Below, piece by piece: positions 3,377 through 41,680 of a DNA stretch of 64,000 nucleotides. Positions within the stretch are counted from its first letter, which is position 1. The number at the start of each line of letters is the position of its first letter. This DNA is from an uncultured Gemmatimonadales bacterium (GTDB lineage: Bacteria; Gemmatimonadota; Gemmatimonadetes; Gemmatimonadales; GWC2-71-9). Below the pieces are notes generated by a model. It had not been told where the DNA came from, searched no databases, and saw only the letters and a list, made by a program, of their open reading frames with translations. Where the stretch lies: positions 1 through 64,000 of the forward strand of contig CAVZZO010000003.1 of assembly GCA_963779755.1 (NCBI GenBank). The letters are read 5' to 3'. Made by a program: the position numbers and the translations under genes.

Positions 3377-3425
3377 GCAGCGAGCGGGATCCTCCCCGCT
3401 TACCGCTCACCGCTCACCGCTCACC
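3358..3425. repeat. Palindromic heptamer-repeat (REP-like) element, GAGCGGT/ACCGCTC family
   Basis: GGTGAGCGGTGAACGGTAAGC...TTACCGCTCACCGCTCACCGCTCACC; inverted, similar copy of 7924-7997. Confidence 0.75.
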
Positions 3426-3450
3426 CTCTCATAACCGGAGGAGTAGCACC

Positions 3451-5595: not shown

Positions 5596-5690
5596 GGGGG
5601 CGGATCGGGCCTGGTGGTCCGGCCGGACTTCAAATCCGCGACGGAGGCGCCTTGGGCGACTCCGGTGGGTTCGATTCCCACACGCTCCCG
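5596..5690 (+). tRNA. selC: tRNA-Sec (anticodon TCA)
   Basis: ~95 nt; anticodon loop CTTCAAA (TCA at 5630-5632); long variable arm CGGAG...CTCCG; T-loop GGTTCGATTCC; extended D stem; G discriminator. Confidence 0.9.
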
Positions 5691-8720: not shown

Positions 8721-8765
8721 GGTGCGAAGATAGAAACCGCTGCCGCCGGGCGGAAGGGAGCCGGG

Positions 8766-9182
8766 GTGATCACCGAAACGCTGGTCCGCGTCAACTATTC
8801 GGAAGTCGACCAGATGGGCGTCGTGTACCACGCGCGCTATGTCGTCTGGCTCGACGTCGCCCGTACGGAGCATATGCGCCGGGCCGGCATGAGCTACCGC
8901 GAGGTCGAAGCCCGTGGTTTCCGCCTGGCGGTGGCCGAGCTGCGCATCCGCTACCGGCAGGCGGCCCGGTATGACGACCAGGTGCGGATCCGCTGCTGGG
9001 TGCGCGACCTGGGGAGCCGGCGCGTTACCTTCGGCTATGCCCTGGAGGACGTGGAGCGCGGAGTCCTGCTTGCCACCGCCGAGACCGTGATGATCTCGCT
9101 GAGCCACGACCATCGTCCGGCACGATTGCCGGAGGACATCCTGGGTCTCCTCCACGCCACCGGCGACCCAGTGCGTCTCTGA
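8766..9182 (+). CDS. Acyl-CoA thioesterase (YbgC/4HBT family)
   Basis: VRVNYSEVDQMGVVYHARY hotdog motif. Confidence 0.9.
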   Translation: MITETLVRVNYSEVDQMGVVYHARYVVWLDVARTEHMRRAGMSYREVEARGFRLAVAELRIRYRQAARYDDQVRIRCWVRDLGSRRVTFGYALEDVERGVLLATAETVMISLSHDHRPARLPEDILGLLHATGDPVRL

Positions 9183-9277
9183 CGCCTTGACGGCCGCGAC
9201 GGGACGCAGCGAACACCGGCAGCTCGTGGCGTTCTTCGTGCCCCGACCGTTACTTTCTCGAAACCACAGGATCGATC

Positions 9278-27587: not shown

Positions 27588-27740
27588 ATGCACGACCGGG
27601 AAACGCCCCAGGAGGAAATCCCCTGGCCCCAGAGACTGTTTGACAACATCTGGCTGTTGGCATTAGCCGCGATCCTGTTCTTCTTCCTGTCCTACATCGC
27701 ATGGGGTCTCCTGGACCTCCTTTCTATCCGGGGAGGCTGA
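27588..27740 (+). CDS. Small single-TM subunit of the heme-copper enzyme (50 aa, missed by ORF track)
   Basis: Hand translation MHDRETPQEEIPWPQRLFDNIWLLALAAILFFFLSYIAWGLLDLLSIRGG*; GGAGG RBS; stop 1 nt before subunit II ATG. Confidence 0.8.
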   Translation: MHDRETPQEEIPWPQRLFDNIWLLALAAILFFFLSYIAWGLLDLLSIRGG

Positions 27741-27741
27741 G

Positions 27742-28278
27742 ATGAATTCTCCGCTGGAGTCCCCGCAGGGTGCGTGGTGGAAACACCCGGTCAGCGGGCA
27801 GGAGCGCGTATGGCTGGGTCTCAGTCTCCTGACCGCGCTGATCCTTTTCGGCTGGATGGTCGGCTGGACGCAGGTCGGCCATGAGAATCCCATCGGTGAG
27901 ACCTTGCGGGTGAGTCCGGACGCCTATCGGGCGAAGGTGACGGCCTATCAGAAGGCGGCCGGCCACACCGACGCCGGGCTGGTCCCGCAGGGGGAGGACG
28001 TGTATGTCGCCGGGCAGCAGTGGGCCTGGGGCGGCCTTCCCGTCGTGCTGCAGGCCGGCAAGCAGTACCGGCTGCATCTGAGCAGTTACGATGTGCAGCA
28101 CGGTTTCGGGCTGCATCGCGAATCGCGCCTGATCGAGGAGTTCAACCTCCAGGTCCTCCCCGGCTACGAATGGATTGTTCCGATCCGCTTCGAGCACCCG
28201 GGAATCTATGACGTCCAGTGCAACGAGTTCTGCGGCCTTGGCCATCGTGTCATGCACGGCCGGATCATCGTGAAGTAG
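27742..28278 (+). CDS. Heme-copper oxidoreductase subunit II (CuA cupredoxin)
   Basis: One TM helix; DVQHGF and CNEFCGLGHRVM CuA ligand set. Confidence 0.93.
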   Translation: MNSPLESPQGAWWKHPVSGQERVWLGLSLLTALILFGWMVGWTQVGHENPIGETLRVSPDAYRAKVTAYQKAAGHTDAGLVPQGEDVYVAGQQWAWGGLPVVLQAGKQYRLHLSSYDVQHGFGLHRESRLIEEFNLQVLPGYEWIVPIRFEHPGIYDVQCNEFCGLGHRVMHGRIIVK

Positions 28279-28293
28279 GGGGGAATCGAAACC

Positions 28294-30000
28294 ATGGCAC
28301 TCGGTCTCTTGGACCAGACCTACGGCGAGGACGGATTCCGCACTTGTGCCGTGACGAAATTGCGGATCCACCGTTCGGCGGAGGTCCCGGTCAAGATCTT
28401 CGGCCTCACGGCGGTGGTCGCGCTCATCCTGGGCGGAATCGCCGCCCTGCTCGTCGCCCTTACCCGCTGGGAGGCGGTGGGCCTGCTGCAGCCCGCGGCG
28501 TTCTACAAGTATCTGAGTCTGCACGCCTGGAATCTGCTGATCTTCTGGATGGTCTTCATGGAGGTGGCGATCCTCTACGTCGGCGGGCCCATGGTGCTGG
28601 GACGCCGGCTGCCGGCTCCACGGGTGGTGCGCACGGGCTGGGGGATCATGGTCGCCTCGGCGCTCCTGATCGAGTACGCCATCTGGACTACCAGCTACCC
28701 CGACCAGCAGCCGCTGCTCACCTCCTACGCACCGCTCAAATCGTCGCCGCTGTTCTACCTGGGAGTGATCACCTTCATTCTGGGTACGGTGACTGCGGCC
28801 CTGCCGTTCTTTGCCTGCCTCTGGCAGGAGAAGCGGGAGCATCCCGAACGGACGCTTCCGCTGGTGACGTTCGGATCGTTCGTGACCGGAATCATCGCCG
28901 TGGAGGCCCTGCTCGGCGGACTGATCACCTATGTGCCGACCTTCCTCTGGCGAATCGGGGTCCTGGGGAGCATCGACGCCGCATGGTACCGGCAGATGTA
29001 CTGGATCATCGGCCACGGGACCCAGCAGATCAATCTGGCGGCCATGGTCACGGTGTGGTATTTCCTGACCCACATCACCGCCGGCGCAGAGGTGGTGAGC
29101 GAAAAAGTGTCGCGCCTCGCCTTCATCTTGTACCTGTTCTTCATCAACATGGGGGCGGCGCATCACCTGATGTCCGACCCGGCGCTCTCCGCCAGCTGGC
29201 GGATCTGGAACACGTCCTACGCGGTGTACGGGGCCGTCTTCGCCAGCCTGATTCACGCCTTCGCCGTTCCCGCGGGGCTGGAAACCGGGCGGCGCAAGCG
29301 GGGGCTGGGCCGCGACGGATGGTTCGGATGGCTCCGGACCGCGCCCTGGCATGACCCCGGATTCTCGGCGACGATGCTGAGCATCATTCTGTTCGGGTTC
29401 CTCTGCGGTATCACCGGGGTGCTCATGGGCCAGATGCAGTTGAATACCATGCGGCACAACACCCTGGCCGTGCCCGGCCACTTCCATGCCTGCGTCGCGC
29501 TGGGAACCACCCTCACCTTCATGGGATTGCTCTACTACCTCATCCGGCTGCTGTTCCGGAAGGAGTGGGTTCTGGACCGGCTGGCCCGGGCGCAACCGTA
29601 TCTGTACGGCGGCGCCATGACCCTCGCGGTCATGGCGATGATGGAGGCGGGCATCGTCTACGGCGTGCCCCGGCGGGATCCTATCGTGACCTCGATCCCC
29701 GGGACCACGTTCAGCTTCGCCGCGTCGCGCCCGGTGCTGGCCCTGATCGGGATCGGAGGCGCCCTGGCCGTGCTGGCGGGCGCCGCCTTCGTGCTGGTGG
29801 CGGTCGGCTCGCTGCTCTTCGGGCGCGAAGCCCGCATGCGGACCCCGGTCCCGCTCGAGCTGACCGGCGATGCGGTCGCCATCCACCGTTTCTCCATGCG
29901 GGGCACCCTGACGACCGGGATCTTCTTCCTGCTGGTGATGGGATTGTTATACGGGCTCGACTGGCTGTGGCTGTCCCGGCTGTGGGCGTTCGGGTCCTGA
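28294..30000 (+). CDS. Heme-copper superfamily subunit I, B-family-derived; probable eNOR-type nitric oxide reductase
   Basis: Six His ligands (SLHAW, GHGTQQ, AHH, GHFH) and PRR; Gln, not Tyr, four residues after the helix VI His. Confidence 0.8.
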   Translation: MALGLLDQTYGEDGFRTCAVTKLRIHRSAEVPVKIFGLTAVVALILGGIAALLVALTRWEAVGLLQPAAFYKYLSLHAWNLLIFWMVFMEVAILYVGGPMVLGRRLPAPRVVRTGWGIMVASALLIEYAIWTTSYPDQQPLLTSYAPLKSSPLFYLGVITFILGTVTAALPFFACLWQEKREHPERTLPLVTFGSFVTGIIAVEALLGGLITYVPTFLWRIGVLGSIDAAWYRQMYWIIGHGTQQINLAAMVTVWYFLTHITAGAEVVSEKVSRLAFILYLFFINMGAAHHLMSDPALSASWRIWNTSYAVYGAVFASLIHAFAVPAGLETGRRKRGLGRDGWFGWLRTAPWHDPGFSATMLSIILFGFLCGITGVLMGQMQLNTMRHNTLAVPGHFHACVALGTTLTFMGLLYYLIRLLFRKEWVLDRLARAQPYLYGGAMTLAVMAMMEAGIVYGVPRRDPIVTSIPGTTFSFAASRPVLALIGIGGALAVLAGAAFVLVAVGSLLFGREARMRTPVPLELTGDAVAIHRFSMRGTLTTGIFFLLVMGLLYGLDWLWLSRLWAFGS

Positions 30001-31758: not shown

Positions 31759-31802
31759 TCCCGCGCCCGTAGCTCAGTTGGATAGAGCATCGGCCTTCTA
31801 AG
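31759..31802 (+). repeat. Left att site: 44-bp direct repeat = 4 nt leader + 5' half of tRNA-Arg(TCT)
   Basis: TCCCGCGCCCGTAGCTCAGTTGGATAGAGCATCGGCCTTCTAAG, identical to 41603-41646; no T-arm follows. Confidence 0.95.
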
Positions 31803-31839
31803 GGGACTGGCCAGCGCGGGTCAGCGCCGACGGGCGCAG

Positions 31840-31917
31840 AATCAAGGACTTAGGGCCCCGGACGCTGGCTCGCGCCAGTCCGCCGGGGCCCGTTTGACAC
31901 CACGGCTGGCACCACGG
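31840..31917. promoter_or_regulatory. att arm: IHF consensus and tandem putative integrase arm sites
   Basis: AATCAAGGACTTA (31840-31852) fits WATCAANNNNTTR; TGACACCACGG 31895-31905 and TGGCACCACGG 31907-31917; TGACACCACG recurs at 41569-41578. Confidence 0.65.
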
Positions 31918-31951
31918 GAGCGGCGCGAGTTTCCTGGGCGACTTCAGCCGT

Positions 31952-32170
31952 TCACTCGCCCTGGCTCAGGATCCATTGCCGGACGGGCTCCGCGAGCCGA
32001 CAGAGGTCGGCCCAATCGCCTTCCTTGACCCGCCGACGCATCAGCATAATGTCGCCCCGGCCCATGCCCTCCATGACCACGTGGGCGGGCGGGCTCCAGG
32101 TCAGCCGCTCGAGGGCGCACTGGACCGCCTCATCGTCGGGCCACAGCTGCCCGGCCAGCTCCTGAAACAT
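31952..32170 (-). CDS. Small hypothetical protein, last gene of the element's leftward operon
   Basis: MFQELAGQLWPDD...WILSQGE; follows the tape-measure-like gene; start uncertain. Confidence 0.45.
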   Translation of the reverse strand: MFQELAGQLWPDDEAVQCALERLTWSPPAHVVMEGMGRGDIMLMRRRVKEGDWADLCRLAEPVRQWILSQGE

Positions 32171-32192
32171 GGCGATGAGATCGGCATCCGGC

Positions 32193-33671
32193 TTATCGGT
32201 CGACGACAAGTGTGTACTCCCGTGTGCTGTCCAGCTCGCGCAGCATCCGCACGAACTCGTCGCGCTGGCGAGGGTCGCTGGTGTTGATGATGCCGCCCCC
32301 GTGAATATGAACCACCGCCGTTCCTTGCCGCGACCCGCCCACGGCGGCCGACTGCTGGTTGCTGAGGCCCGTCCCCGTCCCGGCATTCCACCCGCTGGGC
32401 TCCCGGAAGGCACCGGCGCTGGCGGTCCCGCGCCCGGCACCGCCCAACTGCTGCGCGATCCCGCCCAGGGCCGCCCCCAGCGCTACCAGGAGGGCGCCGG
32501 CGGCGATGGCCGTGACGGGGTTGAGCGGGTTCGCCAGCGCCAATTTCAGGGCAATCCCGTAACTGATCAGCGTCTCGCCCATCTGGGTCATGATGCTGCC
32601 GAGGCTGGCGAAGATCGTGGCCCCGAACGCCTTGAACACCCCGACCACCCCCTCGCCGGAGAAGGCCGCCGAGATGGTGTTGTAAACGACATCAGAGAGC
32701 GCCTGGGCTAGCCCGGCGTTGAAGGTCTCCCGCATCGACTGCTCCAGCGCCTGGGAGGCCGCCAGGGAGATCCCGAAGACCTGCTGGTAGAGCTGTTCCG
32801 TCGCCTTCGTCAGTTGGTCGGTGGTCGGGAGCAGGGAGCCGAGGAGTGGGCCAATGTCCGCAGGGACCCCGGGCCGCTGCGGCATGTGGACCTGGGTGAT
32901 CCCCAGATACAGGGCATCGCCGGCGCTTTGAGAAAGCGCCTGGATGCGCTTCATGAGCGCTGGACTGATTTCCCCGCCGATATTGGGGTCGCCGAAGACG
33001 GCCGTTTCCAGTTTGGTCTGACCGGCCTTTGCCTGCTTGGTGGCGGCCGGGGGCGGGAACCGGGTCAACATCTGGCCGGTCAACTCGTTGAGCGCGCGCT
33101 CATAACGCGCGGCCCGCGCACGGAGATCGGCCAACTCCTGGTCGGAGAACGGCTGGAACTTTGTGACCGTTCCCTGCTGGGCCGTCGTGATGGTGACGGT
33201 GCGCCCGCCAGCGGCCAGCTGGGCCTTCACCGCCTTGGCCTGCTTGGCTATGTCATCGAAATTCTGCGCGATGTCGATCCCGAGTCGCGCATCGGCTGCC
33301 TTGTTCAGGGACTCGACCAGTTTGTCCGTTTCCTCCCGCGCCTTGATGATCTCCGGCTGGAAATGTTTCCAGACGGCGGTCAGGACGGCGACACCGGCCG
33401 CGACCCCAAGCACCAGAGTCGAGCCGCCGGCGAACAGGAGCAGCCCTTCGGCCAGTTTCGACTGGGCCCCCGTCAGGCCAATCGCTTCACGGGCCAGCCC
33501 TTCAAACCCGAACTTGAGTTTGGTGGCGCCTTCCAGGCTGAACCGGCCGAAGGCCGCGTCGGTCTCCCCCGCCACGACCGCCGTTTTCCGCATACTCGCC
33601 TGCACCTGGTCCGCGACACGCGAGGCCAGGTCCTGGGCGGTATAGGTGACGCTGACATCGTTCTGCGGCAT
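32193..33671 (-). CDS. Tape-measure-like protein (492 aa)
   Basis: AAGGAG RBS; N-terminal TAQDLAS; Ala/Gly-rich amphipathic helices; two hydrophobic regions; NPVTAIAAGALLVALGAAL; Gly/Ser linker; terminal beta-strand domain. Confidence 0.6.
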   Translation of the reverse strand: MPQNDVSVTYTAQDLASRVADQVQASMRKTAVVAGETDAAFGRFSLEGATKLKFGFEGLAREAIGLTGAQSKLAEGLLLFAGGSTLVLGVAAGVAVLTAVWKHFQPEIIKAREETDKLVESLNKAADARLGIDIAQNFDDIAKQAKAVKAQLAAGGRTVTITTAQQGTVTKFQPFSDQELADLRARAARYERALNELTGQMLTRFPPPAATKQAKAGQTKLETAVFGDPNIGGEISPALMKRIQALSQSAGDALYLGITQVHMPQRPGVPADIGPLLGSLLPTTDQLTKATEQLYQQVFGISLAASQALEQSMRETFNAGLAQALSDVVYNTISAAFSGEGVVGVFKAFGATIFASLGSIMTQMGETLISYGIALKLALANPLNPVTAIAAGALLVALGAALGGIAQQLGGAGRGTASAGAFREPSGWNAGTGTGLSNQQSAAVGGSRQGTAVVHIHGGGIINTSDPRQRDEFVRMLRELDSTREYTLVVDR

Positions 33672-33796
33672 GCGTGGGCTCCTTCAGCCCGGGCCCGCGG
33701 GGGGAGGGTGGCCCGTCGCGTCCGTCCCTTCGCGATGTGGCCCTGGCGGTGAGGAGAAATCCTGAGGAGCTGGACCGGACGGCACCGCCTGAGATT

Positions 33797-35591
33797 CTAC
33801 GTCAGGGCATCCGCCGTGTAGGCGAAGGCCTTGGGCAGCCGGATGCCCACGTCGACCATCGCATGCACGATGATGCGGATCATCTCTGGTCGGCGTGGGT
33901 GTACGGATCGACCGTGAGATCGATGGCGCTGCCGAACTCTCCGATCAGGATCTGGCTCAGTTCCCGAAGAAGATTTCGTGACAGATCGTGGTCGAGGTGC
34001 TCTTGGTGAGGTTGGACCTGGCCTGGTTGCTGACGACGGCCGCATAGCCGTTCATGCGGTTGTCGTTCTCCCAGATGAACAGGCTGCCGCTGGCGGTGCT
34101 GCGCAAAGTTTGCTTCATGGCGGAGCGGATGCCCGGGGTGGTCAGGAAGGCCATAGTCCCGATATCGCCGTTGGCGGCGGCGATCTGGATCTCATAGTTC
34201 ACGATGTTTGCCCAGCTCGGCACCGCGCCGTCGGCCCCCATCGTCACGGCGATGACCCGGTCTGACTGGCCACGCCCTTGGGCTGGTTCGCGCGCCGGTG
34301 CCAGAGAGGGCGGCCAGGTCGATCCCTTCGGCCGCCACGGACATCAAGTCGTTGATGATCAACTGATCGATGGATGGGTAGAACTGAATGAACGTCTGCT
34401 TGGAATAGCGCGCTGCACTCATGGCGGTTTTGGGGCTGAGCGTGACGTTGTCGAACGTGGCCGCTATCAGTGAGATGGGATGGACGGATTTTCGCCGACC
34501 CAGCTGAACGTGTTGGTAGTGATCTGCCGGGGATACTGAGGTTGTTGCGGAGGCCGGTGAGCACGGTGGCGCCGAGCTGGCGCTCACCATCGGTTGCGCA
34601 GGATCTCGATCAGTCGGCCAGCACGTTCGTCTGCACGCCCGCGCCGCCCAGCGAGCTGGTGCCGGCCACGTTGCCGATCACGGCGGCCCGGACCGAGGTT
34701 GAGCGGCATGTAGAAGCGATCGGCGCCGACTCGGCCCTGCTGGCTAAGGATGGTTTCGCGCACTCGCGCTCGAAGCCGGCGTGGCGCCAGTGCCCGTCGC
34801 CGGGCCATGAGCGCCCGGCTGATGGAGTAGTGCCGTTGCTTGCGGGGGGAGAAATCGACGTGGCCGCCGGCCGCAGTTGAGTGGCTCCGATCGCGTCCGC
34901 TCCATGCCCGGCGCACCTCGGCTCGATCTCCTCGACGCTGGATGCCGCTGAGCCAGGCAGGGAGATCGGCCTCCCGCTGCGAGACCGAGGCGATGAATGC
35001 CAGCCTCGGCAGCGTTCGCGTAGGGATTCTCGCCCACAAATCCACGCCCTTCACTGGACCCGCTCATGATGGCCTCGTTTCGTGTGAGACTGCGCCCGAC
35101 ACCGACGCTATCATCGGCCGGGATTGGAACGCTGGAGACCTCCAACGGCGTCCATGCGTAAACGGAGTGGGAATGCCGTCCGGGCCCTCGACGGTGGTAT
35201 AAGTCGCCGGTGGATAGCCCACCGAGACTTTCTTGCGTATGCCGTCCCGCATGTCCGTCGCGACCCAACTCGAATCGGGGTGAGTCGCCCAGCGCAGGAT
35301 GCCTCGGAACTTGCGATCCATTTCGAGGGTGATGTTCTCGATGAAACCGAACTGCGTCGCGAGTTGTGATTCAACAGGAAGGGGAAGCCGTCGCTGGCGC
35401 GGCTCAAATTGATGTCGGCGGGATTGTGAGAGAGAACTTCTGGTAGATACGGCCGGTGGCCCAGTCCGGCGCTCGACCGGCGTCTCGCTCGAGAAGGCAA
35501 TGTCAAGCGAATTGTCGCGGCGGCCTCGCGCGTCGGTTACGAGCTCGACCGCACGGAGCGGATCGCCGGCGCCCGCGTGCTTTGCGGCCAC
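33797..35591 (-). pseudogene. HK97-type prohead protease + major capsid protein (probably one fused ORF), frameshifted in this assembly
   Basis: Stitched frames: IAFSSETPVER, EVLSH, PFLLNHN, KVSVGY, WTPLEVSSVPIPADDSVGVGRS; then YSISRAL, LIEILRN, TFDNVTLSPKT, GIDLAALSGTG, NQPKG, GYAAVVSNQ, IFFGN, VDPYT, DVGIRLPKAF. Confidence 0.85.
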
Positions 35592-35689
35592 TCGCCCTCC
35601 TCAGGTAGTTTCCACCGTTTGCCTGAAATACCGCGCCGCGGCGAATTGGTGCAACGGTTTTATTGAGGCTTTTTTCAGCCGGAATCCCC

Positions 35690-36036
35690 GGATTCGGGCG
35701 GTGTTTCTCCGGTATTTGGCTCTGGGAGCCGCGCAACGCTTGACCCGTCAGGTTCTGGCGCAATTCGGCCTGGTCGAACGCCTGGACCAGGGAGGCGGCC
35801 ACGGCCGCCCGGGCCGGCTCGCCCTGGTGCGCCGCGGCGCGGCTTCGCCTGCAGCTCACGCCGGAGGTGTAGGCGGCCGCCAGCGAGCGCGAGCGCGCGC
35901 TGGGCGAACGCGAACATCTCGGGATACTCCTGCAGGAAACTGGCGTGTTGCTCCAGGCTTGGGTCAATACACCGCCGGGGGGCACTGCGGGCGAGCCGTT
36001 GTCGTTGAACTCCAGGTCGCGCGATGCGTACTCATG
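35690..36036 (-). pseudogene. Fragmented hypothetical gene between endonuclease and protease
   Basis: GGAGG RBS and ATG near 36035; plausible peptide segments alternate between frames; limits approximate. Confidence 0.35.
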
Positions 36037-36039
36037 GCT

Positions 36040-36367
36040 CCCCTCCAAGGCGCGTTGAATGAGCCGGATGGTCGGAAGGTGCAGAGGTCGCTCGGGATGA
36101 CCCGGAGCAGCCGCCAGCCATAGCAGGCCAGGGTGTTGTACTTCTCGAGGTCGTTCAGAAACCCGGTGATGCTCACGTGACGGCCCCGCCGGCGGCCCCC
36201 GTCCCGCTGGCGTGAGGCGAACACGCCGCCCTCCACCTCCAGGGCGAGCCGGTGCGCCGGCCAGGCGTAATCCAGCCGCCAGCGCCGCGACGAGTGAAGC
36301 GGTACTCGCGCTGGGGCGCGGGTAGGCCCTGAGTCACGCAGAGGGGGCCGAACAGCGGGTCCGTCAT
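36040..36367 (-). pseudogene. Phage Vsr/DUF559-like (PD-D/ExK) endonuclease with a frameshift near 36295
   Basis: EYRF|..RRWRLDYAWPAHRLALEVEGG...GRH...GFLNDLEKYN...GWRLLRV; adding one C (TTC[C]AC) joins the frames; 3' end approximate. Confidence 0.75.
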
Positions 36368-36377
36368 GGCTCCTCCC

Positions 36378-36572
36378 TCACGGTTCCCACCGGGGAGGCG
36401 GGTTGGCCGGGCGGCCCGTCCGGCAACAGTTGGGGCAGCGCCGGGTGTTCCGGTTACGCGGGGTGAACTCCTGCGAGCAGGCCTGGCACAGGCGGGGGCG
36501 ACGGCCCATCCGCAGGCTGGCGGCCCTGGCCCGGTCCCGCGCAGCCGCGCTCACGCCTCCGGCCAGGGTCAA
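36378..36572 (-). CDS. Small zinc-finger protein
   Basis: CQAC-x13-CPNC; basic. Confidence 0.5.
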   Translation of the reverse strand: MTLAGGVSAAARDRARAASLRMGRRPRLCQACSQEFTPRNRNTRRCPNCCRTGRPANPPPRWEP

Positions 36573-36802
36573 CTCCCATATCGCTGGCTCGGTGGGCCTG
36601 TCCCACTGTGCGAGCTGAGCGCCATGAGCAAGCCGGCTTCCAGCGCTTCCGCCAACATTCCGACATACTCTCCGAGGCCGCGGTAGAGGACCATGGGTTC
36701 CGGATGACCCGGCTTGACGGCGACCAGGTCGCCCGGCAGGGCATGTAGAGCAGGGATGGCATGGAGCACGCGGAAGACCGTCGTCCCACTCTCGTTTGTC
36801 AT
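36569..36802 (-). CDS. Hypothetical protein, first gene of the putative late operon
   Basis: GGGAGG RBS, ATG at 36802; preceded by an AT-richer intergenic gap. Confidence 0.55.
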   Translation of the reverse strand: MTNESGTTVFRVLHAIPALHALPGDLVAVKPGHPEPMVLYRGLGEYVGMLAEALEAGLLMALSSHSGTGPPSQRYGS

Positions 36803-36976
36803 TGCCAGCCTCCCGATTTGCAGGGCAAAGTGTCCACTATTTGGAACAGGAAGTCGCATGCTGAAAACTCAGCGCTAGTGAATGATCGGGCGCTTCAGCG
36901 ACCCCCGGCCACCCCCCGTCAGGAGGACCCGAACACCTATATGACAACGTGTTAGCGAATTGCGATGCGAACCTGC

Positions 36977-37282
36977 TCATCGGGACCGCCAGGCGCTGAG
37001 GTCGGCCGCCCCACCGCGAGCCGCCTCCTGAAAGGCTTTGAGGCCAGCCGGCGGGACGCGCCACTCCCGGTTGTGCAACCGATAGGCGCCCGGGAAGCGG
37101 CTCTCGGCGCACCAGGAGCGGATGGTGCTGGCTTTCCGGCCGAGCCGGGCGGCTATCTCGGGGCAGGTGAGGTCGCCCTGGACCTGTGCGGGCTGGGCGA
37201 CGTCGTTCTCCAGCCAGCTGCGGGGAACGCTCACCAGGTCGGACGTGGTGGAGTCCAGGTAGGCGCGGAGGTGCGGGTTCAT
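36977..37282 (-). CDS. Helix-turn-helix DNA-binding protein (HTH_17/MerR-like)
   Basis: LTCPEIAARLGRKASTIRSWC...FPGAYR...WRVP; ATGA-coupled to the helicase gene. Confidence 0.75.
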   Translation of the reverse strand: MNPHLRAYLDSTTSDLVSVPRSWLENDVAQPAQVQGDLTCPEIAARLGRKASTIRSWCAESRFPGAYRLHNREWRVPPAGLKAFQEAARGGAADLSAWRSR

Positions 37283-38562
37283 GGGGCCGCCTCCCATGCG
37301 TCTCCGCGGTCCGCAGACTGAACCTTCGGCAGGGTTGAACCCTGCCCGGCTGCTGAATCCGGTTCGGGTCTCCCCTTTACACTTTCAGTGTAAAGGGGAG
37401 TTGAACCCTGAACCTTGGGATTCCACGGTTCACCTGAACCCTCGCTGAACCTTGGCCGAACGCTTGAACCTTCGGGGCTCGGGAGGGCGGCGGCGATGCC
37501 CGGGCCGGTGATCCGATAGGGGCCGGCGCCGGTCCGGCCGGAGCCATCGGACCCGACGTAGCCAAGGTCCAGGAGCCGGCGCCGTGCCTTGCTCAGGCTG
37601 CCTTTGCTGATTTCGGCGACCTCGGCCCACCGGCTCCAGGTCAGGGCCTCGTCGTTGTGGCGATACAGCGCGGCGAGGGCGGCCCGTTCGCTCGGCGTAA
37701 GGTTCGTGGGATCCGGGACGGTCCAGTCGCCCGGAGGCCGGACCAGGGTAAGCCGGGCCGAGTGCCACGTCCCCCCGGCGGCGTCGATCTCGTACCGGAT
37801 CTCACGCGGGGCCGGGCGCTCGGCCCGGGATAGCTTCTCCGTCGTGAGCCACAGCGCCCCATCTCGCGTCTCGGTGGTGAAGACCCCGCGTGCGGCCGCT
37901 GCCCAGGCGGACGCGCCCCGCACCTGGTCGAGTCGGCCGCGTCCGTCTTTCGGCTTTCCGAAGTGGGCACAGGTGAGCGTGGCGCAGCCTAGAGCCGTCA
38001 ACTGCCGCCAGAACTGCACCACCGGACGCGCCTCGGTGTTGGAATCCTCGTTCCCGCCCAGCATTTCCGCTAGCGGATCAAAAACGCACAGGCGAGCCCC
38101 CAGACGCTGGATTTCCGCGCGCAGGTGGAGCTGCCACCGCAGATCGTCGAGCCGGCACCCCGCCAGGGCCAACAGGTGTAGCCGGCTGAGGACGCGCTCG
38201 CGCTCCCATCCGTGGCCCTGAATGAGTGCCGCCACCCGGTTCTGGATGACCGATTGCCCGTCTTCTTCACTCACGATGAGGACCGGGGCCGCCGCGGCAA
38301 CGGCGAAACCGTCCAGTACGGCATAGCCGCCGGCGAGCGCTGCCGCGGTCGCGAGCGCAAGGGTGGTCTTGTACCCCCCGGTCGGGCCCGAGAGCACGGT
38401 CGGTTCATCGGCCAAGAGGAAACCATCCACCAGCCATGCGATGGGCTCGGGGTCCCCGGCGTTCAGCAAACACACCGAGGCCGGGAGCGCGCCGGAGTCC
38501 TCTCCATTGGCCGATGTGCGCTCGACAAGGAACTCCGCGGCCAGAAGGTCGGCGCCCGTCAT
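37279..38562 (-). CDS. RepA/AAA_25-type replicative helicase with C-terminal wHTH
   Basis: WLVDGFL, Walker A GPTGGYKT, SEED, Walker B VFDP, ED.N, H..K, RGASAW; C-terminal ISKGSLSKARRRLLDLGYV. Confidence 0.85.
   Translation of the reverse strand: MTGADLLAAEFLVERTSANGEDSGALPASVCLLNAGDPEPIAWLVDGFLLADEPTVLSGPTGGYKTTLALATAAALAGGYAVLDGFAVAAAAPVLIVSEEDGQSVIQNRVAALIQGHGWERERVLSRLHLLALAGCRLDDLRWQLHLRAEIQRLGARLCVFDPLAEMLGGNEDSNTEARPVVQFWRQLTALGCATLTCAHFGKPKDGRGRLDQVRGASAWAAAARGVFTTETRDGALWLTTEKLSRAERPAPREIRYEIDAAGGTWHSARLTLVRPPGDWTVPDPTNLTPSERAALAALYRHNDEALTWSRWAEVAEISKGSLSKARRRLLDLGYVGSDGSGRTGAGPYRITGPGIAAALPSPEGSSVRPRFSEGSGEPWNPKVQGSTPLYTESVKGRPEPDSAAGQGSTLPKVQSADRGDAWEAAP
37319..37470. repeat. Iteron cluster + 14-bp inverted repeat (putative replication origin)
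   Basis: Seven direct TGAACC and one inverted copy; CTCCCCTTTACACT-ttc-AGTGTAAAGGGGAG at 37370-37400. Confidence 0.75.
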
Positions 38563-38957
38563 GCGTCCCGCTCCTGAATAGCACGCCAGGTCGTGTCGGC
38601 CCGGCGCGAGTTCCATTCCCGGGCCGGGATCCGGACCAGCCGACGCGCGAGGTTTGCCAGGTCCGGGGCGGTGGTGGCCTGCTGCAGGATCTGTTCGGCC
38701 ACCTGCACCCGGCGCTCGTGTTCGCTGAATCCCTCCAGCTGCTCCCAGGAACCCGCCGCGAGGTTGGGAAGTCGAGAGTACTCACCTTCGAGCAGCGCGG
38801 CGGACCAGCAGGCGAGCCACCAGAGCCGATCGCGCTTCCCCGGCGCGGTACGCTCCCGAGCATGCCACCGGGCGAGAATGGCCCGCGCGAGGTGCGCAGG
38901 AGCCTCCTGCTTCTTCCCCGTCCGTGGCCGGTGGCGTGTCGCGATTTGTGGAGGCAT
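38559..38957 (-). CDS. Hypothetical protein
   Basis: 132-aa ORF with ATGA overlap to the helicase start. Confidence 0.55.
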   Translation of the reverse strand: MPPQIATRHRPRTGKKQEAPAHLARAILARWHARERTAPGKRDRLWWLACWSAALLEGEYSRLPNLAAGSWEQLEGFSEHERRVQVAEQILQQATTAPDLANLARRLVRIPAREWNSRRADTTWRAIQERDA

Positions 38958-38966
38958 CGCCGGGGC

Positions 38967-39326
38967 TCAGCCGCGCCCGCCGGCCGCATCCGCGTCGGCG
39001 AGCTTGTGTAGGGCACTGACGTGAATGACGAGCTGCCCGAGGAATTCAACCGGCAGCAGCCAGCCGCCGCCGGTCGGGCGGAAGGCGTCGGAGGAAAACT
39101 CCTGGGGCGACTTCCGCCACAATCGCGCATCGAGAGCCCGCTGCTCCGGAAACCTCGGGTTGGGTATGATGACCAGCCGAAGCTCAAGATCCTCGGTCAG
39201 CGCGATGCGCTTGCGAAGGCCCGGCTCCAGCGGCGAGTAGAACTCCCGCAGCAGCTCACGCGCTTCGCGGTCGCCCGCTGACCCCTGGCCCGCCCCCCGG
39301 GCGGCTCGGTCCTGCCGGGCGGTCAT
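38967..39326 (-). CDS. PC4/YdbC-like ssDNA-binding protein (putative)
   Basis: LDARLW...FRPTGGGWLLPVEFL resembles the PC4 D.R.W...PT.KG..L motif; ATGA-coupled to the Xis-like gene. Confidence 0.5.
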   Translation of the reverse strand: MTARQDRAARGAGQGSAGDREARELLREFYSPLEPGLRKRIALTEDLELRLVIIPNPRFPEQRALDARLWRKSPQEFSSDAFRPTGGGWLLPVEFLGQLVIHVSALHKLADADAAGGRG

Positions 39327-39514
39327 GAGGCCGGAGCTCCTTCCCGCTCTCGCTCTACTCGCCGCAATGACGCGAGGGCCACCGTCCACCGCCCCTCCCG
39401 CCGCTCGCCCTCCAGTCGACCCGTGAGCACCCACCGATGCGCGGTGTGATACGGCACGCGCAATCGGGCTGCTGCTTCCACCAGCGTCACCGTTTCCGTC
39501 ATTCCAGTTTCCAT
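39323..39514 (-). CDS. Excisionase-like HTH protein
   Basis: TLVEAAARLRVPYHTAHRWVLTGRLEG.R..GRW.V; divergent from the repressor. Confidence 0.75.
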   Translation of the reverse strand: METGMTETVTLVEAAARLRVPYHTAHRWVLTGRLEGERREGRWTVALASLRRVEREREGAPAS

Positions 39515-39532
39515 CTTGCGCCCCCAGGAGAG

Positions 39533-39552
39533 TCCTTGTAGTGTTACAAGGA
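39533..39552. promoter_or_regulatory. Putative repressor operator in the divergent switch region
   Basis: Perfect inverted repeat TCCTTGTA-gtgt-TACAAGGA. Confidence 0.65.
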
Positions 39553-39612
39553 ACAAACAACAACTTAGGCCCTCACCCGGGCGGGCAAAAGACCCCGGAG
39601 CACAGACTCGTA

Positions 39613-40311
39613 ATGGCAACAAGGAAACGGCGGACGAGGTACGGACGGGAGCGCGTCCCGGTTGTGGCGGACCGGCTCAATGCCGCGATCCGTTTACGGG
39701 GGCTCAGCGTCAACGGGCTGGCGAAGGCGGCCGGGATTCAGCAAGCTACGGTCGACCTCGTTGTGCGCGGCGTCTCCCGCAAGACTCAAGAGGACCGGCT
39801 CGCCCGGATTGCGGACGTGCTCCAGGTTCCCTTTGAATGGCTCACCGGGGAGTGGCGGTTGCTTCCCCATGCGTTCTACCCCAAGGACGTTGTTGACGGG
39901 CAGAAAGAGCCGACACTGCCCTCGCTGGAACAACTGGTCGAGCACGACTTCAATAGCCGCTGTGCCGGAGCGGTCGCGCGAGACTGGCCAAAGGATGACC
40001 AGGCTTGGTTGCTCGAAGCAGTCCTCCAAACGCTGATTGCCCCTGGTAGCTGGCGCCACCTGTTAGTCAGATCCCGTCCAAACCCGACTCCGCGTGTTCG
40101 CCGACGACCCTCCGCAGAGGAAGTCAGTCGCCTGAATCAGGAGGCTGCAGAGCGAGAACGCCAAGCAATGATGTGCCTGTCGAAGGCGTTCCAGATCATC
40201 CTCGGCCCATGGCTCAAGGGGGATGCCGCGTTGGACGTGCGGGCTCTTCAACGTCTCAAAAATCGTCAGACTTCGCCGAGCCGAACACCAGAACCAAAGG
40301 AGCAACGATGA
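39613..40311 (+). CDS. XRE/CI-like repressor (N-terminal HTH, non-peptidase C-terminal domain)
   Basis: RLNAAIRLRGLSVNGLAKAAGIQQATV...LARIADVLQVPFEWLTGE. Confidence 0.85.
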   Translation: MATRKRRTRYGRERVPVVADRLNAAIRLRGLSVNGLAKAAGIQQATVDLVVRGVSRKTQEDRLARIADVLQVPFEWLTGEWRLLPHAFYPKDVVDGQKEPTLPSLEQLVEHDFNSRCAGAVARDWPKDDQAWLLEAVLQTLIAPGSWRHLLVRSRPNPTPRVRRRPSAEEVSRLNQEAAERERQAMMCLSKAFQIILGPWLKGDAALDVRALQRLKNRQTSPSRTPEPKEQR

Positions 40312-41597
40312 AACGCAAAGGTCGCATCTACTGGCGCGTCCGGGGCGGCGAGCGGCGGGCCTATGCGGACTTCCGCGACTTCGCGGACGTGGGCGGAGGA
40401 CGAGAAGCACTGCGGCCGGCGGGGGCCGCGCTCGCCACCAACGACCCCGCGGTCGCCCGCGTGCTGGCGGATCGGCGCCTTGCCGAGCTCCAGGCCCTCC
40501 GCCGTCAGCGCGCCGTCCTGGGGGAGGGGCGCGCCTCGGCCACCCTGGGGGCCTACGCCAGCCGTCACCTCGTCCTCAAGAAGGAGTCCGCACGGTTCAC
40601 GGACGGCACGATTGCCGCCGCCGAGCACTACCTCGAGCGCGCGGTCGCCTACTTCGGCGCCTCGCGCGCCCTCATGAGTCTCACCGTGGCGGACGTGCAG
40701 GGGTGGATTGAACACCTCAAGCGGTCGCACCCGGGGCGGGGCAGAGGCAAGCGCAACCTCTCCGGCGGGACGCTGCGCCACCACATCAACGCTCTCTCCA
40801 ACCTCTACGAGCGGGCGAAATCCGAAAACCTCGTGGTCGGCTCCTACAACCCGGTCGCCAATATCCTCCGGGGCGAGAAGCCGACGGGACGGCGAGCGGA
40901 AGCCCGCTGGCTCGAAGTCCACGAGACGGCGCTCTTACTGGAAGCGGCCCGGCGGGTCGATCCCCGGCGCCCGGAGACGTGCCGCTGCCTGCACGTGCTG
41001 CTCGCCACCATGGCGCTCACCGGCGGGCGGAAGTCGGAAGTTCTCGGCCTCACGGGAGACGACGTGAGCCTCGAGCGCAAGACGGTGACGTTCCGCCCCA
41101 ATGACTGGCGCCGCCTCAAGACGGCCACGAGCTGGCGCACGGTGCCGCTCTGGGCCCAACTCGAAGCCATCCTCGGCCCCTATCTGGTGCCGGTGGACCG
41201 GACGCCCCGCACCGGCCTTCTGTTTCCCACGATCGACCGGAACGGGCGCACCGTCCCGCTCGTGGATTTCCGGAAGGCGTTGGATACCGTGGCCGTTGCC
41301 GCCGGCTGGAAGGCGGGTGAGATTACCACCAAGATGCTCCGCCATACCTACTGCGCTGCGCGGATTCAGACGCTGGATCGCGGGGCCCCGGTGAGCCTCT
41401 ACACCGTCGCCAAGGAGATGGGGCATGGCGGGGATGCGCTGGTGAAACGCATCTACGGCCACCTGGGGCAGGTGCGCCACCGGGCCGAGGTGGTCGAGTA
41501 CCGGATCGAGCAGCACCTCCCGGCCCTCCGGGAGCGGATGGAAGGGCTGCCGTGGTGCCAACCGTTCTTGACACCACGAGACGCCGAAGTCGTGTAA
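40308..41597 (+). CDS. int: Tyrosine recombinase/integrase
   Basis: AAAGGAG RBS; TGGRKSE, RLKT, KMLRHTY, MGH, IYGH catalytic set; stop 5 bp before the att core. Confidence 0.95.
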   Translation: MKRKGRIYWRVRGGERRAYADFRDFADVGGGREALRPAGAALATNDPAVARVLADRRLAELQALRRQRAVLGEGRASATLGAYASRHLVLKKESARFTDGTIAAAEHYLERAVAYFGASRALMSLTVADVQGWIEHLKRSHPGRGRGKRNLSGGTLRHHINALSNLYERAKSENLVVGSYNPVANILRGEKPTGRRAEARWLEVHETALLLEAARRVDPRRPETCRCLHVLLATMALTGGRKSEVLGLTGDDVSLERKTVTFRPNDWRRLKTATSWRTVPLWAQLEAILGPYLVPVDRTPRTGLLFPTIDRNGRTVPLVDFRKALDTVAVAAGWKAGEITTKMLRHTYCAARIQTLDRGAPVSLYTVAKEMGHGGDALVKRIYGHLGQVRHRAEVVEYRIEQHLPALRERMEGLPWCQPFLTPRDAEVV

Positions 41598-41606
41598 GTT
41601 GTTCCC

Positions 41607-41680
41607 GCGCCCGTAGCTCAGTTGGATAGAGCATCGGCCTTCTAAGCCGAGGGTCGCAGGTTCGAATCCTGCCGGGCGCA
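41607..41680 (+). tRNA. tRNA-Arg (TCT), intact copy overlapping the right att site
   Basis: GCGCCCG/CGGGCGC acceptor stem; TCGGC-CTTCTAA-GCCGA anticodon arm; GGTTCGAATCC. Confidence 0.96.

What the first reader, a model, noticed from the sequence alone, without database searches (positions are those of the whole stretch)
31803..41646. Candidate new phage-satellite type: capsid + protease + short tape measure, without terminase or portal
Seen: a complete ~9.8 kb element between perfect att repeats. It has a PICI-like layout (int, repressor, divergent xis, small ORFs, helicase, HTH). The same strand continues with a Zn finger, a Vsr-like nuclease, an HK97 protease-capsid, a 492-aa tape-measure-like gene and a small ORF. 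No terminase, portal, head-tail or tail-tube gene is recognisable, and there is little room for one. Known: capsid-forming PICIs encode a full head and packaging module; classical PICIs and P4 encode capsid-size modulators and borrow tails. Inference: this element may supply its own small head and its own tail-length or DNA-delivery protein while borrowing portal, terminase and tail from a helper siphophage. I do not know of a described family with this gene set, in Gemmatimonadota or elsewhere.
Basis: partly seen in the sequence, partly recalled or inferred. Interest (0 to 1): 0.88.

Follow-up and report, generated by a model that had tools for sequence, protein, structure and literature searches.

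The report
Small mobile element with capsid and tape-measure genes
A 9.8-kb mobile element sits at a tRNA-Arg gene and carries a phage capsid gene and a tail tape-measure gene but no portal or terminase, so it is probably a helper-dependent phage satellite, of a kind first described in 2025-26, though its capsid gene reads as broken in this assembly.

Summary
The element is real. A perfect 44-nt direct repeat (31759-31802 and 41603-41646) bounds 9,844 bp at tRNA-Arg(TCT). It holds a tyrosine integrase, a cI-like repressor, an xis-like HTH, an AAA_25 helicase, a second HTH, a Zn-ribbon protein, a nuclease-like gene, a protease-capsid fusion, a 492-aa tape-measure protein (TMP) and an 85-aa ORF. 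No portal, terminase or tail-tube remnant was found.

In this assembly three genes are frameshifted, all within 33,884-36,608: the protease-capsid fusion (10-14 shifts), the nuclease-like gene and the Zn-ribbon gene. A near-identical sister copy lies on a separate 9,846-nt public contig. There the Zn-ribbon gene and 217 aa of the capsid are open, but the TMP is fragmented. The lesions are private, complementary and far richer in indels than in substitutions. The corrected capsid reading has no stops, normal GC3 and no excess substitutions. I therefore think most breaks are consensus errors (about 0.7).

Best reading (0.5): an excising satellite-like element that makes its own capsid shell and TMP. 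Main rival (0.3): an excisable prophage remnant.

Satellites with capsid plus TMP and no portal or terminase (EPIPs), and satellites with their own TMP (PLEs, some cf-PICIs), are already in print. I rate this a new variant of a known kind.

The parts
31759..31802 (+). attL core: left copy of the perfect 44-nt repeat (a copy of the tRNA-Arg 5' part)
   Evidence: 100% identical copies; alignment
31763..31838 (+). Pseudo-tRNA at attL. The repeat is followed by a degenerate 3' half that keeps the acceptor strand CGGGCGCA. In the circular form this would be part of attP.
   Evidence: Rfam tRNA 31.4 bits against a gathering score of 29; alignment
31952..32209 (-). 85-aa ORF after the TMP gene, function unknown, predicted all-helical
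   Evidence: Exact protein is in the collection (P0175) with a sister variant P0176. AF2 pLDDT 68. 0 of 86 BFVD matches at E<=0.001.
32193..33671 (-). 492-aa tape-measure-like protein. It is intact and in a single frame, with RBS GAAGGAG 7 nt upstream and hydrophobic segments at 73-104, 342-360 and 382-407.
33800..35591 (-). Prohead protease-HK97 major capsid fusion gene, read through 10-14 frameshifts in this assembly
   Evidence: phrog_617 pieces in several frames; tblastn and frameshift-aware alignment to P0006 and to sister P0166; NCBIfam on P0006 and P0166
35600..35960 (-). About 360 nt unassigned, with strong GC3 periodicity in 35675-35975 and no family match
35964..36364 (-).
   Evidence: E 3.6e-17, and the match starts upstream of the first start codon in that frame; translation
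36378..36802 (-). 141-aa protein (N-domain plus C-terminal CxxC...CxxC Zn ribbon), broken here by a -1 nt shift near 36,608 and open in the sister copy (P0174)
36977..37282 (-). 101-aa HTH_17 DNA-binding protein (AlpA/excisionase-type fold family)
   Evidence: Pfam HTH_17 E 1.2e-7; sister P0172 identical at 100 of 101 residues
37279..38562 (-). 427-aa AAA_25 (RepA/DnaB-like) ATPase with a C-terminal winged helix; the putative replication helicase
   Evidence: Pfam AAA_25 E 1e-29; PHROG primase/helicase families; exact sequence seen on 2 contigs
38559..38957 (-). 132-aa ORF, function unknown
   Evidence: GC3 frame; exact sequence seen on 2 contigs; no family
38967..39326 (-). 119-aa ORF, function unknown
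39323..39622 (-). Xis/AlpA-like HTH_17 protein, divergent from the repressor gene. The true start is probably the ATG at 39514.
   Evidence: Pfam HTH_17 E 3.7e-5, below the curated cut-off; phrog_2907 excisionase E 2.8e-5
39541..40311 (+). 256-aa cI-like HTH_3 repressor
   Evidence: Pfam HTH_3 and phrog_2328
40308..41597 (+). 429-aa tyrosine integrase, ending 10 nt before the tRNA
   Evidence: PF00589; phrog_1 E 1.8e-36; RBS at the 40308 start; exact sequence seen on 2 contigs
41603..41680 (+). attR core (41603-41646) within the intact tRNA-Arg(TCT) gene (41607-41680)
   Evidence: 77.4 bits

Best explanation
This is a 9,844-bp integrative element at tRNA-Arg(TCT) that can leave the chromosome as a unit. 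It is most likely a helper-dependent phage satellite.

Shown:
- The att repeats, a tyrosine integrase with an xis-like partner, a cI-like repressor and an AAA_25 replication ATPase are present.
- Downstream on the same strand sit a protease-HK97 capsid fusion and a full-length 492-aa TMP with its own ribosome-binding site.
- No portal, terminase, connector, tail-tube or lysis gene is present, and there is no room for the larger ones.
- A near-identical copy exists as a separate 9,846-nt contig.

Inferred mechanism:
- Derepression leads to excision and replication of the circle.
- The fused protease-capsid protein assembles a small shell on a helper phage's portal.
- The helper's terminase packages the 9.8-kb genome.
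- The element's TMP replaces the helper's TMP in helper-built siphovirus tails. PLEs have been shown to do this, and it has been proposed for EPIPs.

The 12-16 frameshifts between 33,884 and 36,608 are, in my judgement, mostly consensus errors of the assembly (about 0.7). If they are real, this particular copy can no longer make a head.
For: - Boundaries: perfect 44-nt repeat and tRNA.
- Gene set.
- TMP kinship, searches: there are 575 relatives at E<=1e-3 among 1.84 billion representatives. Several match end to end at similar length, such as P0055 (459 aa) and P0071 (479 aa).
- TMP kinship, families: 41 of 49 aligned family members match phrog_30292, which is also the C-terminal domain of clear TMPs such as P0005. 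A family profile finds solved TMP chains 9h4p, 8zdo and 9g8s at E 1.5e-5 to 2.3e-4, although coiled coils confound this.
- Absence of other virion genes.
- Compactness: the capsid gene ends about 130 nt before the TMP start, which has a GAAGGAG RBS. The TMP is collinear with relatives from residue about 20, so it is not truncated.
- Unit-length sister contig of 9,846 nt: it carries TMP pieces, a capsid piece, the second HTH, the Zn-ribbon protein and the 85-aa ORF. The exact integrase, helicase and 132-aa proteins were each seen on 2 contigs.
- Breaks look like errors, location: they are private and complementary. The window is broken only at 33,884-36,608. The sister is broken in the TMP N-half and the 85-aa ORF.
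- Breaks look like errors, composition: outside the capsid there are about 7 aa substitutions in about 1,670 compared residues, against at least 6 indel events.
- Breaks look like errors, capsid reading: the corrected reading has no stop in 528 codons. Its GC3 is 0.82, against 0.85 for the TMP and 0.87 for the integrase.
- Breaks look like errors, outgroup count: with P0006 as outgroup there are 7 window-only changes against 11 sister-only changes in 212 columns.
- Host genes are intact: 23 of 34 host ORFs have Pfam matches, many end to end, and none is split across ORFs.
- Precedent in print: EPIPs (PMC12822802, main text read); PLE chimeric tails and tmp genes in cf-PICIs (PMC12987554, passages).
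Against: - As the sequence stands, the protease-capsid gene, the nuclease-like gene and the Zn-ribbon gene are broken.
- In the sister contig the capsid ORF found is only 217 aa and starts internally, so its capsid gene may be interrupted too. Its TMP is in pieces.
- Why errors would cluster in 2.7 kb of an otherwise clean 64-kb window is not shown, only guessed.
- The capsid C-terminus differs by 14% in amino acids between two copies that are otherwise 98-100% identical. This is unexplained.
- No helper phage, pac or cos site, or clear small terminase was identified.
- The only reference-genome relative of the capsid (L001, 51% identity) lies in a full TerS-TerL-portal module.
- P0006's relatives in 101 phage records are in ordinary phages.
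- Gene-order conservation beyond one sister copy is untested.
- SatelliteFinder treats tail genes as forbidden components for PICI and cfPICI (PMC10085698).
Confidence: 0.5

Rival explanations
1. This is a defective prophage remnant. A siphovirus-type prophage at tRNA-Arg lost its terminase-portal block, its connector, tail-tube and chaperone block, and its distal-tail and lysis block by deletion. What remains (integrase, xis, repressor, helicase, capsid, TMP) can still excise, but the structural genes are leftovers in decay.
For: - The capsid gene and two neighbours are frameshifted in this sequence, and the TMP is fragmented in the sister copy.
- The closest reference-genome relative of the capsid lies in a full packaging and head module.
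- About 360 nt between the nuclease-like gene and the capsid gene are unassigned and could be a deletion scar.
- Only two near-identical copies are known, so no long-term conservation of the small format has been shown.
Against: - Three separate deletions would each have had to end in short intergenic spacers, leaving the flanking genes whole. The TMP keeps its start and RBS, and the capsid keeps both ends.
- No partial portal, terminase or tail gene was found.
- Outside the capsid, indels (at least 6) roughly equal amino-acid substitutions (about 7). In the compared 217-aa capsid stretch the window needs 4 shifts yet shows no excess of its own substitutions, and the reading keeps full codon periodicity. 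Slow natural decay should not look like this.
- The lesions are private to each copy.
Confidence: 0.3
2. This is a satellite or mobile island whose head genes really are dead in this copy. The frameshifts are true mutations. Only integration, replication and the TMP are still maintained, so the element would now move, if at all, in helper-made capsids.
For: - Zero frameshifts in the TMP (1.48 kb), helicase and integrase, against 12-16 in the 2.7 kb between them.
- Host genes are clean, so the assembly is not generally noisy.
Against: - The corrected capsid reading shows no stop codons, no excess substitutions and GC3 0.82.
- The sister copy has the opposite pattern of lesions, which would mean two independent indel-only bursts.
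Confidence: 0.2
3. This is an integrative island that uses capsid-like and TMP-like proteins to interfere with infecting phages, poisoning their assembly as a defence, rather than to build its own particles.
For: The literature shows satellite and prophage genes that block tail assembly (PMC12987554 passages on Rta; PMC11364771, abstract as shown in the search listing). The TMP is the best preserved late gene here.
Against: - No defence family was found in 12 element proteins beyond HTH-only matches and one weak LeoBC match to the TMP (E 3e-5).
- A full-length protease-capsid fusion and a full-length TMP look like working structural genes.
- Nothing here tests interference.
Confidence: 0.07

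Closest known systems
EPIPs (Extracellular Prophage-Inducing Particles) of Mycolicibacterium aichiense, bioRxiv Dec 2025 (PMC12822802; main text read, supplement not seen)
   Same: A genome of about 10-11 kb. Both carry a major capsid protein and a tape-measure protein plus an integrase and an HTH protein, and both lack portal, large terminase, tail and lysis genes. EPIPs are proposed to use helper parts and to alter tails through their own TMP.
   Different: - EPIPs have a serine integrase, a separate scaffolding protein, a small terminase, a head-to-tail adaptor and a stopper. Here there is a tyrosine integrase and a protease-capsid fusion, with no recognisable adaptor, stopper or small terminase.
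- This element has an AAA_25 helicase and a cI-like repressor.
- EPIPs were isolated as particles. This element is known only from sequence.
- Sequence relatedness was not tested, because no EPIP sequences were at hand. The TMP found no match in the 50,697 phage records.
PLEs of Vibrio cholerae with their own TMP, chaperone and BhuB, which build chimeric tails; also tmp-bearing PLE-like elements and cf-PICIs (PMC12987554, passages read)
   Same: A satellite-encoded TMP replaces the helper's TMP. The paper states that tmp genes occur in unrelated satellite families.
   Different: - PLEs parasitise a lytic myovirus and remodel the helper's capsid rather than encoding an HK97 capsid.
- PLEs also encode a tail assembly chaperone; none is seen here.
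- There is no homology evidence linking them to this element.
Capsid-forming PICIs (cfPICI), as defined in SatelliteFinder (PMC10085698, passages read)
   Same: An integrase, regulator and replication left half followed by the element's own capsid genes. In Firmicutes cfPICIs the capsid component is merged with the prohead protease. Tails are taken from a helper.
   Different: cfPICIs have 11 core components, including large and small terminase, portal, and head-tail adaptor and connector. None of these is present here, and tail genes are forbidden components in that model.
Classical PICIs / SaPIs and P4
   Same: Size of about 10 kb, tRNA or att-bounded integration, the int-repressor | divergent xis/AlpA-replication layout, and dependence on a helper.
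   Different: They remodel helper capsids with small proteins (Cpm, Sid, Psu) and usually carry a small terminase. They do not encode a capsid protein or a TMP. These names are recalled, not taken from a call.
Protease-MCP fusion genes of phages such as VP882, phiHAP-1 and S-CBS1
   Same: The same fused gene type. P0006, 53% identical overall to the window's corrected reading, matches them at 28-32% identity over at least 98% of its length.
   Different: In those phages the gene lies at about 4.9-6.7 kb of a 30-44-kb genome. That terminase and portal genes precede it there is my recollection; no call looked at their annotation. Here it follows a nuclease-like gene, and no packaging genes exist.

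Membership tests
HK97-fold major capsid protein with N-terminal prohead protease (fusion type; phrog_617, NF045541, TIGR01554) | Sequence match to the capsid and protease-fusion profiles along the whole length | tested here: met
   Window pieces match phrog_617 positions 11-130, 135-171, 410-470 and 485-567. The read-through aligns to P0006 residues 2-590. P0006 matches TIGR01554 (E 1.8e-30) and NF045541. Sister P0166 matches TIGR01554 (E 7.5e-17).
HK97-fold major capsid protein with N-terminal prohead protease (fusion type; phrog_617, NF045541, TIGR01554) | One open reading frame | tested here: not met
   10-14 frame changes are needed in this assembly. Whether they are real is unresolved.
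Tail tape-measure proteins | Homology to annotated or solved TMPs | tested here: met
   - The direct match is weak (phrog_1293, E 0.0032).
- The C-terminal domain (phrog_30292) is shared with P0003-P0005, which match TMP families at E down to 1.4e-51.
- Of 49 aligned family members, 41 match phrog_30292 and 7 match phrog_167, a TMP family.
- The family profile finds PDB TMP chains at E 1.5e-5 to 2.3e-4.
Tail tape-measure proteins | Usual genomic place: after the tail tube and chaperone genes, before the distal tail genes | tested here: not met
   The gene follows the capsid gene after about 130 nt and is followed only by an 85-aa ORF and attL.
PICI (SatelliteFinder model) | Integrase, AlpA/Stl-type regulator, primase-replicase, capsid-morphogenesis gene and small terminase; no tail genes | tested here: inconclusive
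   An integrase, HTH_17 regulators and a replication ATPase are present. There is no clear small terminase, only weak HTH-only matches (phrog_57 E 0.0009-0.0014; Terminase_5 E 0.031). A tail gene (TMP) is present, and that is a forbidden component. SatelliteFinder itself was not run.
cfPICI | Large terminase, portal, and head-tail adaptor and connector, in addition to capsid and protease | tested here: not met
   None was found by tblastn with L001 proteins or by six-frame Pfam and PHROG scans. There is no room for them.
EPIP-type satellites | A genome of about 11 kb with MCP and TMP and without portal, large terminase or tail genes | tested here: met
   9,844 bp; gene set; definition from PMC12822802.
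EPIP-type satellites | Serine integrase, small terminase, head-to-tail adaptor and stopper, scaffolding protein; sequence relatedness | tested here: not met
   The integrase is a tyrosine recombinase (PF00589). No adaptor, stopper or scaffold family was found. Sequence relatedness to EPIPs was not tested, because no sequences were available.
Phage satellite in general | Mobilisation by a helper phage and packaging into particles | not testable with these tools
   There is only indirect support: a unit-length stand-alone contig.
tRNA-integrating tyrosine-recombinase element | Integrase next to a tRNA gene, and a direct repeat of part of that tRNA at the far end | tested here: met
   The repeat covers the 5' part of the tRNA up to the anticodon loop. 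By my recollection this is the less common side.

The most novel reading that the evidence does not exclude
A lineage of about 10-kb satellites, unrelated in sequence to EPIPs and PLEs, has converged on a morphogenesis kit of just two genes: a self-processing protease-capsid fusion and a short TMP. It takes portal, terminase, connectors, tail tube and lysis from a helper siphophage. It integrates through the 5' half of tRNA-Arg and carries a pseudo-tRNA in its attP. The two known copies would differ by an exchanged capsid allele (14% amino-acid divergence, against 0-1% elsewhere). That would point to ongoing capsid-gene swapping with helpers.
Probability: 0.35. Interest if true: 0.7.

Novelty: new variant of a known kind. 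Interest (0 to 1): 0.55.

Why it matters
If the element works, it would be a second, independent case of a satellite that keeps just a capsid gene and a TMP. It differs from the mycobacterial EPIPs in integrase type and capsid-gene type, and it comes from a different host. That would suggest that capsid shell plus TMP is a recurrent minimal solution for hijacking siphophages, and that tail manipulation by satellites is widespread. This element also offers a compact system of about 12 genes in which to test it.

If the frameshifts are real, the locus is an ordinary decaying mobile element.

The case also shows that indel patches in long assemblies can make mobile-element genes look dead.

Tried and rejected
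- Portal, terminase and tail remnants. tblastn of 18 L001 proteins against the window matched only protease and MCP. 36 six-frame fragments scanned against Pfam and PHROGs at E<=0.05 gave nothing relevant.
- 'Vsr-like' label. No match in Pfam, NCBIfam or PDB sequences. Only phrog_503, of unknown function, matched.
- Defence genes. A PADLOC scan of 12 proteins gave only HTH-level matches and one weak LeoBC match to the TMP.
- Known phages and plasmids. There was no match for the TMP in phages, the helicase in phages or plasmids, or the element's DNA in phages.
- 85-aa ORF. The AF2 model has pLDDT 68 and is helical. 0 of 86 BFVD matches reached E<=0.001.
- 141-aa Zn-ribbon protein. The AF2 model has pLDDT 53, too poor to search. 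The best Atlas score was 0.82, a lead at most.
- Promoter and terminator scan. 0 promoter-like and 3 terminator-like sites were found, below the shuffle mean of 5.4. This is uninformative.
- Homopolymer explanation for the indels. The capsid region has fewer runs of 5 or more bases per kb (1.1) than the whole window (2.9). The four shifts checked against the sister copy look like a lost G in runs of 2-4. That is my reading, not a computed result.
- Related loci. No scan was possible with the TMP or the helicase.
- Literature. 4 papers hold 'Gemmatimonad' + 'satellite' + 'prophage', and none is on such an element by title or abstract. The six-term search gave 2 papers, neither describing this gene set.

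Full report
**The element and its boundaries**

A perfect 44-nt direct repeat lies at 31759-31802 and 41603-41646, with a spacing of 9,844 nt. The right copy is the 5' part of an intact tRNA-Arg(TCT) gene at 41607-41680 (ARAGORN; Rfam 77.4 bits). The repeat ends just after the anticodon.

At the left copy Rfam finds a weak tRNA-like match at 31763-31838 (31.4 bits against a gathering score of 29). The alignment shows that the repeat there is followed by a degenerate 3' half that still ends in the acceptor strand CGGGCGCA. In the circular form the element would therefore carry a pseudo-tRNA as attP.

Everything outside the repeats is ordinary host DNA. Of 34 host ORFs scanned, 23 have Pfam matches at E<=1e-5. 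Many run end to end: FTHFS 2-556 of 556, Peptidase_S46 2-697 of 698, Ammonium_transp 1-399 of 399. No domain is split across neighbouring ORFs.

**Gene content**

On the + strand, next to the tRNA:
- A tyrosine integrase (PF00589; phrog_1, E 1.8e-36). Its likely start at 40308 has an AAAGGAG ribosome-binding site.
- A 256-aa cI-like HTH_3 repressor.

Divergent on the - strand, in order:
- An xis/AlpA-like HTH_17 protein.
- ORFs of 119 and 132 aa with no family.
- A 427-aa AAA_25 ATPase with a C-terminal winged helix. It also matches PHROG primase/helicase families.
- A second HTH_17 protein of 101 aa.
- A protein with a CxxC...CxxC Zn ribbon.
- A gene matching phrog_503, of unknown function, at E 3.6e-17. 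Pfam, NCBIfam and PDB sequence searches gave nothing for it.
- About 360 nt that I could not assign.
- A prohead protease-HK97 capsid fusion (phrog_617).
- The 492-aa ORF.
- An 85-aa ORF, and then attL.

**What is absent**

tblastn with 18 proteins of locus L001, including its small and large terminase and its portal, matched only the protease and capsid pieces of the window at E below 0.01. Scans of 36 six-frame fragments against Pfam and PHROGs at E<=0.05 gave no packaging, connector or tail family. The only exceptions were HTH-only matches to phrog_57 (E 0.0014) and Terminase_5 (E 0.031). The unassigned coding space is too small for a portal or a large terminase.

**The 492-aa protein**

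- It is open in a single frame, with GC3 of about 0.85 throughout.
- It has a GAAGGAG site 7 nt before its ATG, and hydrophobic segments at 73-104, 342-360 and 382-407.
- Its own PHROG matches are weak: phrog_30292 at E 2.3e-5 and TMP family phrog_1293 at E 0.0032.
- An exhaustive search of 1.84 billion representatives found 575 relatives at E<=1e-3, 66 at <=1e-10 and 3 at <=1e-30. Most are 415-800 aa long. Several are collinear over nearly the whole query: P0055, 459 aa, matches query 20-471; P0071, 479 aa, matches query 21-476. So 492 aa is a normal length for this family and not a truncation.
- The more distant relatives P0003-P0005 match many TMP families, with E down to 1.4e-51.
- I aligned the query with 48 of the 150 listed hits. 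I picked the longer ones, of about 415 aa or more, among roughly the first 60 listed, plus P0071 and P0128. Of the 49 members, 41 match phrog_30292, 7 match phrog_167 (TMP) and smaller numbers match other TMP families.
- A profile of that alignment finds solved TMP chains 9h4p, 8zdo and 9g8s at E 1.5e-5 to 2.3e-4. These sit among coiled-coil proteins that match for composition.
- I accept it as a tape-measure-family protein. It has no match in 50,697 phage records.

**The capsid gene is not open in this assembly**

The best intact relative is P0006 (592 aa, on a 10,262-nt contig). tblastn with it hits the window in alternating frames. A frameshift-aware alignment needs 14 frame changes between 35,358 and 33,884: nine of -1, four of +1 and one of +2. 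The count is the same at frameshift penalties of -12 and -20. At -30 it falls to 10 frame changes plus one stop.

The same program on the intact relative L001 events in the poorly conserved linker. A few of the 14 may therefore be alignment artefacts, and I quote 10-14.

Two neighbouring genes are also shifted:
- The phrog_503 gene starts in one frame (MTDPLFGPL...) and continues in another near 36,300.
- The Zn-ribbon gene has a -1 nt shift near 36,608.

**The sister copy**

Exact look-ups show that pieces of this element's proteins also lie on a separate public contig of 9,846 nt. That is 2 nt from the att spacing.
- TMP residues 1-69 (P0157), 87-132 (P0030) and 240-492 (P0007, one substitution) appear there as three separate ORFs. 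The TMP is therefore fragmented in that contig.
- A 217-aa capsid C-terminus (P0166) is in one frame where the window needs four -1 nt shifts. It is 85.7% identical to the window's read-through.
- The second HTH protein matches at 100 of 101 residues (P0172).
- The 141-aa Zn-ribbon protein is one ORF there (P0174, 138 of 141 identical).
- The 85-aa ORF appears as P0176, with four scrambled residues and one extra.
- The exact integrase, helicase and 132-aa proteins were each seen on 2 contigs. The tool does not name the second contig.

I could not fetch that contig's DNA.

**Are the frameshifts real?**

Arguments for error:
- The lesions are private and complementary between the two copies.
- Outside the capsid I count about 7 amino-acid substitutions in about 1,670 compared residues, against at least 6 indel events. 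That ratio is far from what I recall of natural pseudogene decay.
- The corrected capsid reading has no stop in 528 codons. Its GC3 is 0.82 overall and 0.86-0.90 in the capsid part, as in intact genes.
- With P0006 as outgroup, 212 comparable columns show 7 changes private to the window and 11 private to the sister. The 'broken' copy has therefore not evolved faster.

Arguments against error:
- The rest of the window looks clean.
- I can only guess why errors would cluster in 2.7 kb. Possible causes are competition for reads between two copies during polishing, or strain mixtures.
- The 14% amino-acid divergence of the capsid C-terminus between otherwise 98-100% identical copies is unexplained.

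I put about 0.7 on most breaks being consensus errors.

**Satellite or remnant?**

For a remnant:
- The breaks, if they are real.
- The only relative of the capsid in 185,579 reference genomes is L001 (51% identity). It sits in an ordinary TerS-TerL-portal-protease/MCP module.
- P0006 has 101 matching phage records, all below 60% identity.

For a satellite-like, selected gene set:
- There are no partial genes.
- The capsid gene and the TMP both have complete ends, and they are about 130 nt apart.
- Three separate deletions would all have had to end in short spacers.
- A unit-length stand-alone contig exists.
- Two capsid alleles both look constrained.

I give the satellite reading 0.5 and the remnant reading 0.3.

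**Comparison with what is in print**

- The first search led to EPIPs (PMC12822802; I read part 1 of 2 of the text, which holds the abstract and body; the supplement was not seen). These are about 11-kb satellites of a Mycolicibacterium prophage. They carry a small terminase, adaptor, stopper, serine integrase, HTH protein, scaffold, MCP and TMP. Their particles have smaller heads and longer tails than the helper's.
- PMC12987554 (passages read) shows that PLEs put their own TMP into chimeric tails. It states that PLE-like elements and some cf-PICIs carry tmp genes.
- SatelliteFinder's cfPICI model requires terminase, portal and connectors, and forbids tail genes (PMC10085698, passages).
- Searches for Gemmatimonad + satellite + prophage (4 papers) and a six-term search (2 papers) found nothing on this gene set. 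That judgement rests on the listings only.

The idea is therefore no longer without precedent. This element would be a new variant, with a tyrosine integrase, a protease-capsid fusion, no small terminase, adaptor or stopper, and a different replication module.

**What stayed unchecked**

- The DNA of the 9,846-nt and 10,262-nt contigs could not be read.
- The genomic context of TMP and helicase relatives was not examined.
- The organism's phylum was not verified.
- SatelliteFinder was not run.
- The raw reads were not examined.

Noticed in passing
window 31763-31838 and 41603-41680: The repeat covers the 5' part of tRNA-Arg, not the 3' part. The integrase gene ends 10 nt before the intact tRNA and reads towards it, so the tRNA's original upstream region now lies 9.8 kb away, next to a pseudo-tRNA. 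How the intact tRNA is transcribed is unclear.
   Followed up: partly
window 33800-34446 compared with sister protein P0166: The capsid C-terminus differs by 14% in amino acids between two element copies that are otherwise 98-100% identical. Most of the differences fall in the first 50 residues compared. This could be an exchanged allele or a mixed consensus.
   Followed up: partly
window 5596-5690: A tRNA-Sec gene (Rfam 69.7 bits) lies just downstream of a formate-tetrahydrofolate ligase gene (3370-5124), so the organism probably makes selenoproteins.
   Followed up: no
window 56683-61664: A complete rRNA operon (16S, 23S, 5S) lies inside the contig. This suggests a long-read or finished assembly, which bears on the question of indel errors.
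   Followed up: no
window 27667-30000: Two stop-to-stop frames (27667-28278 and 28279-30000) are contiguous in one frame and separated by a single stop. The second encodes a COX1-type oxidase subunit. I did not check whether these are two genes or one gene with a recoded stop.
   Followed up: no
L001 8333-10017: In the Actinomycetes MAG relative, the protease part (8333-9118) and the capsid part (9085-10017) lie in two overlapping ORFs in different frames, not in one fusion. This could be a true two-gene arrangement, a programmed shift or an error.
   Followed up: no
P0006 (10,262-nt contig, not retrievable): The closest intact capsid relative (53% identical overall to the window's read-through, and clearly higher in the capsid part) sits on a contig of about the same size as this element. 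Its ORF starts about 50 profile positions into the protease domain. It may be another small element.
   Followed up: no
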